Shown: piece after piece, positions 31 to 4,043 of the stretch
Layout of the letters: each line of letters begins with the position of its first letter
Position numbering within the stretch: the first letter of the stretch is position 1
IMG/VR virus record: IMGVR_UViG_2778261058_000008
Span: 1-4,534 of that record
From: a virus
Lineage: Duplodnaviria > Heunggongvirae > Uroviricota > Caudoviricetes
Length of the DNA stretch: 4,534 bases
Direction: 5' to 3' (one strand)
Notes under the pieces: model-generated
Database searches by the model: none
Seen by the model: the letters and a program-made list of their open reading frames with translations, nothing else
Told to the model about the DNA's origin: nothing
Position numbers and translations under genes: made by a program

Positions 31-43
31 TGCTGCGGGTGCT

Positions 44-60
44 TGAGGCTATCTGCCTCA
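44..60 (+). promoter_or_regulatory. 5' stem-loop of the hok mRNA (tac-like element)
   Basis: TGAGGC (44-49) pairs with GCCTCA (55-60) around a 5-nt loop. The surrounding GCTTGAGGCTATCTGCCTCA closely matches the 5' end of the plasmid R1 hok mRNA as I recall it (GCUUGAGGCUUUCUGCCUCA). Confidence 0.4.
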
Positions 61-94
61 GGCATGAACACCAAAAGGCAGATAGAGAAAAGCC

Positions 95-173
95 CCAGTT
101 AACATTACGCGTCCTGCAAGACGCTTAACATTAATCTGAGGCCCAATCTATGTCTCACAAATGTAGGTTAGCC
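95..173 (-). ncRNA. Candidate Sok-like antisense RNA (type I antitoxin); boundaries approximate
   Basis: Placed by analogy to hok/sok: antisense to the mok-like initiation region. Minus strand has weak promoter candidates (TTGCCT-17-TAACCT, or a TAAGAG -10 that is conserved with my recollection of R1) and a hairpin GCGTC-loop-GACGC (complement of 109-124) followed by a U-rich stretch. Start and end cannot be fixed from sequence alone. Confidence 0.3.
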
Positions 174-362
174 TCTTACGTGCCGAAAGGCAAGGAGAAG
201 CAGGCTATGAAGCAGCAAAAGGCGATGTTAATCGCCCTGATCGTCATCTGTTTAACCGTCATAGTGACGGCACTGGTAACGAGGAAAGACCTCTGCGAGG
301 TACGAATCCGAACCGGCCAGACGGAGGTCGCTGTCTTCGTAGACTACGAATCTAGAGAGTAA
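150..362 (+). CDS. mok-equivalent reading frame, here in frame with hok (70 codons, would give an N-terminally extended Hok)
   Basis: ATG at 150 with GAGG (138-141) 8 nt upstream. Flanking CTATGTCT and AGCCTCTTAC match the mok start region of R1 as I recall it. In R1 mok is offset +1 from hok; here the mok-ATG to hok-ATG distance is 57 nt, so the frames coincide. Confidence 0.3.
   Translation: MSHKCRLASYVPKGKEKQAMKQQKAMLIALIVICLTVIVTALVTRKDLCEVRIRTGQTEVAVFVDYESRE
207..362 (+). CDS. hokD: Hok/Gef-family type I toxin, 51 aa (small membrane peptide)
   Basis: Translation MKQQKAMLIALIVICLTVIVTALVTRKDLCEVRIRTGQTEVAVFVDYESRE: single hydrophobic helix, conserved LTRK..LCE.R motif of Hok proteins, near-identical over most of its length to HokD/RelF of E. 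coli K-12 as I recall it. SD AAGGAG (192-197) 9 nt before the ATG. Gene symbol is by similarity and position, not verified. Confidence 0.85.
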   Translation: MKQQKAMLIALIVICLTVIVTALVTRKDLCEVRIRTGQTEVAVFVDYESRE

Positions 363-371
363 GAGAGACCA

Positions 372-393
372 GGCGGGAGAGTAATCTCCCGCC
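372..393 (+). promoter_or_regulatory. 3' stem-loop of the hok mRNA (fbi-like element)
   Basis: 9-bp stem GGCGGGAGA (372-380) / TCTCCCGCC (385-393) closed by a GUAA (GNRA) tetraloop, 10 nt after the hok stop. Assignment as the fold-back element is by analogy to hok mRNAs. Confidence 0.4.
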
Positions 394-431
394 ACCTCTG
401 ATGTGTCGGCATCCTCAACGCACCCGCGCTT

Positions 432-453
432 AACCCGCTTCGGCGGGTTTTTT
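432..453 (+). terminator. Intrinsic terminator ending the hok transcript
   Basis: Stem AACCCGC / GCGGGTT with a UUCG tetraloop (439-442), followed by six T (448-453). Confidence 0.7.
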
Positions 454-528
454 GTTTTACGTATTCTGGTTTACAATCCACAGGCCAGCCTGAACAACTG
501 GCACCTGCTGCGCCAGCAGAGAAAACAG

Positions 529-2922: not shown

Positions 2923-2928
2923 TCGTGC

Positions 2929-2999
2929 AAATCTGATATTTTGCCGATTTTGTACTCGATGGCAAAGTAAGCAAATCCCGCCGCCGAGCGGGTTTTTTT
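2929..2999 (+). ncRNA. Short terminated late-promoter transcript, about 70 nt (analogous to lambda 6S RNA / StxS)
   Basis: Runs from the predicted PR'-like start to the T-tract of the tR'-like terminator; no ORF with an SD inside. Confidence 0.3.
2977..2999 (+). terminator. tR'-like intrinsic terminator
   Basis: Stem CCCGC (2977-2981) / GCGGG (2988-2992), 6-nt loop, seven T (2993-2999). Confidence 0.75.
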
Positions 3000-3020: not shown

Positions 3021-3103
3021 GTATAGTGCGAAACTGCCTGTTCAGCAGAATCATTTTGTTTGTAGTGGAGTTCACAAGTCGTCATTATCAGGCAAAGAGA
3101 TTT

Positions 3104-3505
3104 ATGGTATTAAAGTATCAGCCGTCTGTTCGTTCTGTTTTAATGTGTGATTTTCGGGGAATGGTTGTTCCGGAAATAGTCAAGGTCAGGCCAGTGGTGG
3201 TCGTGTCCAGAAACAGGCACAACAATCAATTGGTAACAGTGGTACCAATAAGCACTACTGAACCGCTCCCTCGCAGAGATTGCCATCATGAGTTATCAGA
3301 AAACCCCATACCTGGTAATGAGCATATTACTTGCTGGGTAAAATGTGACATGTTGATGACGGTTTCATTGAGCCGACTGGATCGCATAAAAACCAGAACC
3401 TGGGAGGGACGAAATTATATTGTTCCTATGATTGCGGAAGATGAGTTTGAGAATATTAAACGGGCGGTATTGCACGGGATAGGGATGGCTTATCTGTATC
3501 GATAA
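3104..3505 (+). CDS. MazF/PemK/Kid-fold (CcdB/MazF superfamily) toxin-like protein, 133 aa, with no adjacent antitoxin ORF
   Basis: ATG 3104 with SD AAAGAGA (3094-3100). Translation SVLMCDFRGMVVPEIVKVRPVVVVSRNRHNNQLVTVVPISTTEP matches the MazF pattern (IWVDFDP...HRPAVVLS...CVPCTT) with the same 11-residue spacing between DF and RP; C-terminal region also aligns loosely. Could alternatively belong to an uncharacterised phage late-region family such as the YbcV/YdfO (DUF1398) type; I cannot tell them apart without a search. Confidence 0.6.
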   Translation: MVLKYQPSVRSVLMCDFRGMVVPEIVKVRPVVVVSRNRHNNQLVTVVPISTTEPLPRRDCHHELSENPIPGNEHITCWVKCDMLMTVSLSRLDRIKTRTWEGRNYIVPMIAEDEFENIKRAVLHGIGMAYLYR

Positions 3506-3845: not shown

Positions 3846-4043
3846 ATGCTAAAACAGCAGGATATGACCGAAACTGCCAGAGTAGTGTTTAATGAATTGA
3901 GCGTCACCGAACCGGCGACCGTCGGGGAAATTGCGCAGAACACGTACCTTTCACGCGAACGCTGCCAGTTAATACTGACTCAGCTTGTTATGGCAGGTCT
4001 GGCAGATTATCAGTTCGGTTGTTACAGACGCCTTTCGCAGTGA
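3846..4043 (+). CDS. Small 65-aa protein, probable winged-helix/HTH DNA-binding protein
   Basis: SD AAGGA (3834-3838) 7 nt before ATG 3846. Segment ATVGEIAQNTYLSRERCQLILTQLVMAGL has helix-turn-helix character. Function is inferred, not established. Confidence 0.6.
   Translation: MLKQQDMTETARVVFNELSVTEPATVGEIAQNTYLSRERCQLILTQLVMAGLADYQFGCYRRLSQ

What the first reader, a model, noticed from the sequence alone, without database searches (positions are those of the whole stretch)
150..362. mok-equivalent start codon is in frame with hok
In the canonical hok/sok locus of plasmid R1 (as I recall it), mok begins 58 nt upstream of hok and reads in the +1 frame, ending near the hok stop as a separate 70-aa product. 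Here the conserved mok start context (GAGG-N8-ATG TCT, then AGCCTCTTAC) is present but the ATG is 57 nt upstream, so translation from it would make a 70-aa N-terminally extended Hok rather than a separate Mok. That changes how coupling and toxin production would work at this locus.
Basis: partly seen in the sequence, partly recalled or inferred. Interest (0 to 1): 0.6.

Follow-up and report, generated by a model that had tools for sequence, protein, structure and literature searches.

The report
In-frame mok start in prophage hok/sok
The upstream start codon really is in frame with the Hok toxin gene, but this is the usual, long-annotated layout of this prophage and chromosomal branch of the hok/sok family (mokC/hokC in E. 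coli K-12, mokW/hokW in phage 933W), so the finding is ordinary.

Summary
ATG150 follows GAGG after 8 nt, lies 57 nt upstream of the hok ATG207 and shares its stop (360-362), giving a 70-aa ORF that contains the 51-aa Hok. It is homologous to the R1 mok start, and canonical R1 does have a 58-nt offset with a separate 70-aa Mok.

- E. coli K-12 annotates mokC and hokC with a shared stop and a 57-nt offset.
- Phage 933W (GenBank AF125520) annotates mokW (213 nt), hokW (156 nt) and sokW with exactly this geometry. MokW is 92.9% identical to the window's 70-aa product.
- Of 91 HokD-like loci sampled from viral contigs, 72 have the 57-nt in-frame layout, 12 have 56 nt and 7 have 58 nt.
- The exact 70-aa protein is already in NCBI, on 142 contigs.

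The window holds a complete hok/sok-type type I toxin-antitoxin module in the nin/Q region of a lambdoid prophage. The 19-codon extension shows RNA-level conservation, not protein-level conservation. The frame also switches between near-identical loci. So translation through the hok start region probably matters, not the Mok product. Verdict: already known, low interest.

The parts
35..48 (+). 5' end of the hok mRNA (tac-like element, GCGGGTGCTTGAGG). It is predicted to pair with 413-427 in the full-length RNA.
   Evidence: The Rfam RF01794 match starts at 37. The centroid fold of 35-455 pairs 35-48 with 413-427, z = -8.4.
92..96 (+). Anti-SD (ucb-like, GCCCC), predicted to sequester the mok SD in the full-length mRNA.
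   Evidence: The fold pairs 92-96 with 138-142. The role is inferred from the R1 model described in PMC9841398.
138..141 (+). mok Shine-Dalgarno sequence (GAGG), 8 nt before ATG150.
   Evidence: Read from the sequence. Conserved in all HokD-like loci parsed but one (L114 reads GATG).
150..362 (+). mok-equivalent ORF, 70 aa, in frame with hok and sharing its stop. It corresponds to mokW of phage 933W and mokC of K-12.
   Evidence: The exact protein is in NCBI on 142 contigs.
193..198 (+). hok Shine-Dalgarno sequence (AAGGAG), 8 nt before ATG207.
   Evidence: Read from the sequence. The scan pattern required AAGGAG, so the survey cannot test its conservation; independently of that pattern it is present in the E. 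coli genome, R1-type plasmid and K-12 hokC relatives aligned. The bases on either side (CAAGGAGAAG, 191-200) are invariant or nearly so in the 57-nt class.
207..362 (+). hok toxin gene, 51 aa, Hok/Gef family. 49/51 identical to HokW of 933W and 47/51 to K-12 HokD.
   Evidence: Pfam PF01848 at 79.8 bits. PGAP annotates the same ORF in ETEC1732. Sequences compared.
88..158 (-). Sok-equivalent antisense RNA. It covers the mok SD and the first 9 nt of mok. The 5' tail is single-stranded, followed by a long hairpin and a U-rich tail.
   Evidence: Coordinates transferred from the sokW annotation of 933W through the alignment. Fold of the minus strand 160->84: -30.7 kcal/mol, z = -5.1. No RNA data were available.
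165..193 (-). Putative Sok promoter on the minus strand: -35 TTGCCT (193->188), 17-nt spacer, -10 TAACCT (170->165). It lies inside mok codons 6-15.
   Evidence: Inferred from position relative to the sokW 5' end, plus my recollection of the R1 Sok promoter. The consensus scan did not call it. The nucleotides are almost invariant among relatives.
413..427 (+). fbi-like 3' element, complementary to the mRNA 5' end.
   Evidence: Fold pairs listed.
432..457 (+). Intrinsic terminator of the hok mRNA.
   Evidence: Terminator scan: stem 432-449 followed by a T run.

Best explanation
Window 35-457 is a complete hok/sok-family type I toxin-antitoxin module of the mokW/hokW/sokW kind. It sits in the nin/Q region of a lambdoid prophage. 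ATG150 is the mok start, and here, as in mokC/hokC and mokW/hokW, it is in frame with hok.

Inferred mechanism, by homology to R1:
- The full-length mRNA is kept silent by 5'-3' end pairing and by an anti-SD that covers the mok SD.
- After 3' processing the mok start region opens.
- Sok (minus strand, about 158 to 88) pairs across the mok SD and start codon, blocks mok translation, and so blocks hok translation.
- When Sok decays, ribosomes starting at ATG150 read through the hok start region. This permits initiation at ATG207, giving the 51-aa Hok. Because the frames coincide, the same ribosomes also make a 70-aa N-terminally extended Hok.

Both products depend on the Sok-controlled mok start, so the regulatory logic is the same as in R1. 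The frame itself is probably not functionally critical.
For: Identity of the locus:
- Rfam RF01794 at 121.7 bits and Pfam HOK_GEF at 79.8 bits.
- Predicted end pairing 35-48 with 413-427, and SD sequestration 138-142 with 92-96, z = -8.4.
- A Sok-like antisense fold and an intrinsic terminator.
- Neighbouring genes are DUF968, RusA and antiterminator Q.

The in-frame layout is standard:
- K-12 mokC 16751..16960 and hokC 16751..16903.
- 933W mokW 58460..58672, hokW 58460..58615 and sokW 58664..58734. MokW is 92.9% identical to the window's 70 aa.
- 72 of 91 HokD-like viral-contig loci have the 57-nt, 70-aa layout, in 24 distinct sequences.
- The exact 70-aa protein is on 142 contigs, in a cluster of 1137 members.

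The frame is not critical:
- Loci with near-identical Hok have 56-nt (19-codon mok, ATGA stop/start overlap) or 58-nt (+1 frame, 68 aa) offsets.
- Within the in-frame class, mok codons 2-5 vary almost entirely by amino-acid changes.
- Codons 6-19 are nearly invariant, including at third positions. This is the pattern of RNA or promoter constraint, not of a selected peptide.
- In R1, only mok translation up to the hok start region is needed (PMC9841398).
Against: - No expression data exist for this locus. Use of ATG150 and of ATG207, the existence and toxicity of the 70-aa product, and the Sok transcript ends are all inferred.
- The consensus promoter scan found no sigma-70 site for either transcript.
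- The predominance of 57 nt (79%) could reflect selection for the in-frame state rather than shared ancestry. I could not separate the two.
It was drawn with a pattern that requires GCCTCTTAC...AAGGAG, so divergent hok loci are not represented.
Confidence: 0.87

Rival explanations
1. The in-frame start is a derived, locus-specific 1-nt change that alters coupling and toxin production relative to normal hok loci.
For: Canonical R1 has a 58-nt offset and a separate Mok. K-12 mokB/hokB also has 58 nt.
Against: The same 57-nt in-frame geometry is annotated in K-12 mokC/hokC and in 933W mokW/hokW. It holds in 72 of 91 HokD-like viral-contig loci and in strains ETEC1732, DEC5A and EDL933. The exact 70-aa ORF occurs on 142 contigs.
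Confidence: 0.03
2. The 70-aa protein made from ATG150 is the real, or main, toxin. ATG207 is little used, so Sok represses toxin translation directly and there is no true leader-peptide coupling.
For: ATG150 has a good SD (GAGG, 8-nt spacing) and the ORF carries the whole Hok domain. The basic, hydrophilic 19-aa extension ahead of the membrane helix should not prevent membrane insertion (my inference). Many pipelines call the 70-aa ORF as the Hok toxin.
Against: The hok SD (AAGGAG) and ATG207 are present in the relatives aligned independently of the scan pattern, and the loci with 56- and 58-nt offsets can make the same Hok only from the internal start. Extension codons 2-5 are hypervariable and the rest is conserved at the nucleotide level. 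PGAP and curated annotations place hok at the internal ATG.
Confidence: 0.08
3. ATG150 is a chance ATG that is not homologous to the mok start, and the real regulatory ORF starts elsewhere.
For: None found. The only other upstream ATG, at 161, is followed at once by a stop.
Against: The ATG aligns column for column with the mok, mokC and mokW starts. It has the conserved GAGG SD in all parsed relatives but one. It also lies inside the region covered by the annotated sokW and sokC RNAs.
Confidence: 0.02

Closest known systems
mokW / hokW / sokW of Stx2 phage 933W (GenBank AF125520; also Sakai prophage Sp5, PMC8621323)
   Same: Identical geometry: a 213-nt mok and a 156-nt hok sharing one stop, 57-nt offset, and an antisense RNA covering the mok SD and first 9 nt. 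The 70-aa product is 92.9% identical. The leader aligns throughout, including the extended hairpin.
   Different: mok codons 2-4 differ (SHK here, LNT in 933W), as do the last two Hok residues (RE here, EK in 933W). The sequence 3' of the fbi element diverges. Here the locus lies just upstream of DUF968-RusA-Q, while in 933W it lies at 58.4 kb of the 61.7-kb record.
mokC / hokC (gef) / sokC of E. coli K-12 (b0018, b4412, b4413; UniProt MOKC_ECOLI)
   Same: mok is in frame with hok, with a 57-nt offset and a shared stop. It has the same GAGG...ATG and GCCTCTTAC...AAGGAG framework. MokC is a 19-aa extension plus HokC.
   Different: The product is 69 aa rather than 70. The leader lacks the 18-nt hairpin insertion. 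The segment lengths differ (8/17/13/9 in K-12, 8/18/12/9 here). It is a chromosomal locus next to IS186, not a prophage.
hok / mok / sok (parB) of plasmid R1
   Same: The overall architecture is the same: a leader matching RF01794, a mok SD and ATG, the GCCTCTTAC box, the hok SD, end pairing and antisense Sok. The GAGG-to-box length (29 nt) is also the same.
   Different: In R1 the mok ATG is 7 nt after GAGG rather than 8, so the offset is 58 nt, the frame is +1, and Mok is a separate 70-aa protein unrelated in sequence to Hok. Hok is only about 40% identical.
hokD (relF) of E. coli K-12, Qin prophage
   Same: The toxin is 47/51 identical. Both lie in lambdoid prophages.
   Different: The K-12 copy lies directly downstream of relBE (annotation), and similarity to the window begins only at window 193, so it has no mok, sok or leader.

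Membership tests
[quoted passage not shown] | A Hok/Gef toxin ORF of about 50 aa | tested here: met
   Pfam PF01848 at 79.8 bits against a cutoff of 22, residues 25-66 of the 70-aa ORF.
[quoted passage not shown] | A structured hok mRNA leader / Sok region matching the Rfam model RF01794 | tested here: met
   121.7 bits against a gathering score of 59, full model 1-157, window 37-212.
[quoted passage not shown] | A mok-type leader ORF with its own SD that starts upstream of hok and reads across the hok start region | tested here: met
   GAGG-N8-ATG150, open through ATG207. Aligns with the mok, mokC and mokW starts.
[quoted passage not shown] | A cis-antisense Sok RNA covering the mok start region | tested here: inconclusive
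   Coordinates were transferred from the annotated sokW and the fold looks like Sok. However, no promoter passed the consensus scan and there are no transcript data.
[quoted passage not shown] | 5'-3' end pairing (tac/fbi) and an anti-SD that locks the full-length mRNA | tested here: met
   Prediction only: 35-48 pairs with 413-427 and 138-142 pairs with 92-96; z = -8.4 against shuffles.
[quoted passage not shown] | Toxicity and post-segregational killing or prophage maintenance | not testable with these tools
   Needs experiments. Work on the related hokW-sokW locus is reported in PMC8621323.
R1-type arrangement (mok in the +1 frame, separate Mok protein) | mok ATG 58 nt upstream of the hok ATG, with different stops | tested here: not met
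   The window has a 57-nt offset and a shared stop. R1 has 58 nt.
mokC/mokW-type arrangement (mok in frame with hok) | mok ATG a multiple of 3 nt upstream of the hok ATG, with the same stop codon | tested here: met
   The window has ORFs 150..362 and 207..362. The same layout is annotated in K-12 and 933W.

The most novel reading that the evidence does not exclude
The most novel reading not excluded is this. The 70-aa Mok-Hok fusion is a real second toxin isoform. Switching among three coupling geometries in otherwise near-identical prophage loci would then be a way of tuning toxin dose or isoform: 57 nt in-frame read-through, 56 nt with an ATGA stop/start overlap, and 58 nt in the +1 frame. 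The hypervariable mok codons 2-5 would set Sok specificity among the several hok/sok copies found in one genome.
Probability: 0.15. Interest if true: 0.35.

Novelty: already known. Interest (0 to 1): 0.1.

Why it matters
It matters little as a discovery. In-frame mok has been annotated for hokC/gef in the K-12 reference genome and for hokW in phage 933W, and the exact 70-aa ORF is already in public databases.

Its practical value is as a caution about annotation. R1 is the textbook model, but its out-of-frame mok is not representative of the hokC/hokD/hokW branch, and gene callers variously report the 70-aa or the 51-aa ORF as "the Hok toxin".

The natural frame variants (56, 57 and 58 nt) among near-identical loci offer a ready-made test of the old conclusion that translation of mok, not its product, is what matters.

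Tried and rejected
Of these, L148 and L205 have a 60-nt in-frame offset and L187 a 57-nt in-frame offset. L215 and L230 have no ATG at the expected place.
- The R1 accession KY749247 is not in the plasmid collection. I used p1658/97 instead, which matches 230 nt of the R1 hok leader and 5' coding sequence, entered from memory, at 100%.
- I tried tblastn coverage of the extended protein as a bulk test of frame. It does not discriminate, because the hok frame stays open for some codons upstream whatever the position of the ATG. Only rows covering residue 1 are informative.
- Literature searches for 'orf69' with gef and for mokA/B/C/W gave nothing useful. PMC1370018 is not held.
- None of the papers I could read states the frame relation explicitly. 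The claim that this is already known therefore rests on database annotation, not on a quoted paper. My recollection that Poulsen et al. 1991 described gef coupled to an in-frame orf69 could not be checked.
- The consensus promoter scan found no promoter for hok or Sok.

Full report
**What is in the sequence**

The window reads GAGG (138-141), then CCCAATCT, then ATG TCT (150-155). AGCCTCTTAC is at 170-179, AAGGAG at 193-198, ATG at 207 and TAA at 360-362. The ORF list shows 150..362 as a 70-aa ORF whose last 51 residues are the Hok-like protein that starts at 207. The offset is 57 nt, so ATG150 is in frame with hok and the two share a stop.

**It is a real, complete hok/sok locus**

- Rfam RF01794 (the sok / hok-leader model) matches window 37-212 end to end at 121.7 bits, against a gathering score of 59.
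- Pfam HOK_GEF matches at 79.8 bits.
- Folding 35-455 as RNA gives a structure far more stable than shuffles (z = -8.4). The 5' end (35-48) pairs with 413-427, which is tac/fbi-like. The mok SD (138-142) pairs with GCCCC at 92-96, which is anti-SD/ucb-like. An intrinsic terminator lies at 432-457.
- The minus strand from 160 to 84 folds into a 5' single-stranded tail, a long hairpin and a U-rich tail, like Sok.
- The neighbouring genes are DUF968, RusA and antiterminator Q. This is the nin/Q region of a lambdoid prophage. The closest E. coli chromosome, ETEC1732 at 98.9%, shows the same context.

**The comparison with R1**

The 230 nt of the R1 hok leader and 5' coding sequence that I entered from memory matches thousands of plasmids, several at 100% and 2660 at 99% or better. 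On one exact match, p1658/97, the mok ATG is 58 nt upstream of the hok ATG, in the +1 frame. It encodes a separate 70-aa Mok, MSSPHQDSLLPRF.... This agrees with the coordinates in PMC9841398 (mok start T117/G118, hok start G176).

The difference is subtler than an indel. The GAGG-to-GCCTCTTAC distance is 29 nt in both loci. The ATG lies 7 nt after GAGG in R1 and 8 nt after it here.

**The arrangement is not unusual**

- In the K-12 reference genome, mokC (16751..16960) and hokC (16751..16903) share a stop and differ by 57 nt, with sokC annotated across the mokC start. MokC is a 19-aa extension plus HokC.
- The K-12 mokA pseudogene shares its end with hokA.
- K-12 mokB/hokB has 58 nt and different stops.
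- K-12 hokD has no mok, because it lies directly downstream of relBE and similarity to the window starts only at position 193.
- In phage 933W (AF125520), mokW is 58460..58672, hokW is 58460..58615 and sokW is 58664..58734. That is a 213-nt mok and a 156-nt hok with one stop, exactly as in the window, and MokW is 92.9% identical to the window's product. Another Stx2 phage record annotates the same pair as 'host cell-killing modulation protein' and 'host cell-killing protein'.
- The window's exact 70-aa sequence is already in NCBI and UniRef. It occurs on 142 contigs, in a 90%-identity cluster of 1137 members, usually named 'type I toxin-antitoxin system Hok family toxin'.

**Survey of relatives**

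A pattern scan of viral contigs (GCCTCTTAC...AAGGAG) returned 120 stretches, of which 95 carried a recognisable hok. Among the 91 HokD-like loci:

| Offset | Loci | Distinct sequences | Consequence |
|---|---|---|---|
| 57 nt | 72 | 24 | in frame, 70-aa ORF |
| 56 nt | 12 | 1 | 19-codon mok whose TGA overlaps the hok ATG as ATGA |
| 58 nt | 7 | 4 | +1 frame, 68 aa, as in R1 |

Strain CFT073 also belongs to the 56-nt class. Among E. coli chromosomes fetched individually, ETEC1732, DEC5A and EDL933 have 57 nt. The few true hok loci from other species were also in frame: 60 nt in two and 57 nt in Shigella hokC. In-frame mok is therefore the majority state in the hokC/hokD/hokW branch, though not universal across the family.

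**What constrains the 19-codon extension**

I compared the 22 distinct sequences of the main 57-nt class.

- Almost all variation falls at window 142-149 (the SD-ATG spacer) and 153-164 (mok codons 2-5). Nearly every change there alters the amino acid.
- Codons 6-19 are almost invariant, including third positions.

This is the signature of constraint on RNA and DNA elements, not on a peptide. Those elements are the Sok target and Sok 5' tail, the inferred Sok promoter at 193-165 on the minus strand, the GCCTCTTAC box and the hok SD.

The frame also switches among loci whose Hok proteins are identical. In R1, only mok translation up to the hok start region is needed (PMC9841398). Taken together, the likeliest reading is that the frame is incidental. 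Translation from ATG150 opens the hok start region. Sok blocks ATG150. The in-frame state simply means that read-through ribosomes make an N-terminally extended Hok as well.

Whether that 70-aa species accumulates or is toxic cannot be decided here. The extension is short, basic and hydrophilic, so I would expect it to be tolerated, but that is inference only.

**Rivals**

- A locus-specific frameshift is excluded by the survey.
- A chance ATG is excluded by the alignments and by the sokW and sokC annotations.
- The idea that the 70-aa protein is the only toxin and ATG207 is unused is unlikely. The hok SD and ATG are present in the relatives aligned independently of the scan pattern, and the 56- and 58-nt loci can only make Hok from the internal start. 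It is not formally excluded for this locus.

**Limits**

- The one genome-collection scan was largely wasted on chance matches.
- tblastn coverage turned out not to discriminate frames.
- I found no accessible paper that states the frame relation in words. A 2026 preprint on Hok diversity deliberately left Mok prediction out. So 'already known' rests on long-standing curated annotation (K-12 mokC, 933W mokW, UniProt MOKC_ECOLI), not on a quoted sentence.

**Verdict**

The homology to the mok start and the contrast with R1 are both correct. The claim of an unusual arrangement with altered mechanism is not supported. This is an ordinary member of the mokW/hokW/sokW kind. Novelty: already known. 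Interest: about 0.1.

Noticed in passing
Loci L092, L093, L013, L005 (56 nt); L111, L017, L022, L047 (58 nt); window 150-209 (57 nt): Prophage loci with identical or near-identical HokD-like toxins fall into three mok-to-hok geometries. These are in frame (57 nt, 70 aa), a 19-codon mok whose TGA overlaps the hok ATG as ATGA (56 nt), and +1 frame (58 nt, 68 aa). The length changes sit in the hairpin between GCCTCTTAC and AAGGAG (12 or 13 nt) and between the mok ATG and the box (16, 17 or 18 nt).
   Followed up: partly
L001 (NZ_CP128973.1, 32443-32655) and the 30 plasmid records listed: IncF plasmids whose Hok is identical, or nearly so, to R1 Hok carry a mok ATG 57 nt upstream and in frame (a 71-aa ORF). 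So the in-frame state also occurs inside the R1 plasmid clade. Canonical R1-type loci (L253, L254) have 58 nt.
   Followed up: partly
Window 142-149 and 153-164: There is a hypervariable block around the mok start among otherwise almost invariant leaders. It coincides with the predicted target of the single-stranded 5' tail of Sok. It may set antitoxin specificity among the multiple hok/sok copies per genome (median 2 and up to 10 matching places per E. coli genome).
   Followed up: partly
Window about 107-124: The leader hairpin carries an extra 16-18 nt relative to the Rfam consensus and to K-12 hokC. The insertion is shared with 933W and lengthens the predicted Sok terminator hairpin.
   Followed up: no
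Window 3026-3505 (+): An ORF with a PemK/MazF-like type II toxin domain (52.3 bits) lies downstream of the Q antiterminator gene. I did not look for a partner antitoxin. The neighbouring 65-aa ORF at 3846-4043 has only a weak TrmB-like HTH match.
   Followed up: no
Window 2927-2998 (+): A weak isrK-like match (19.5 bits, far below the gathering score of 50; E = 0.51) lies immediately downstream of Q, where lambdoid phages have the late promoter and a short leader transcript. It is probably not significant.
   Followed up: no
Window 37-212 (+): The Rfam family named 'sok antitoxin' (RF01794) matches the hok-mRNA strand and runs through the hok ATG. In practice the model describes the hok leader rather than the antisense RNA, which is worth remembering when reading automated annotations.
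   Followed up: no
Phage record PP818812.1 (H91): The best phage tblastn hit to the 70-aa product (94.3%) is labelled 'Actinobacillus phage vB_Apl-pPE4'. That is an unexpected host for an E. coli-type hok locus.
   Followed up: no
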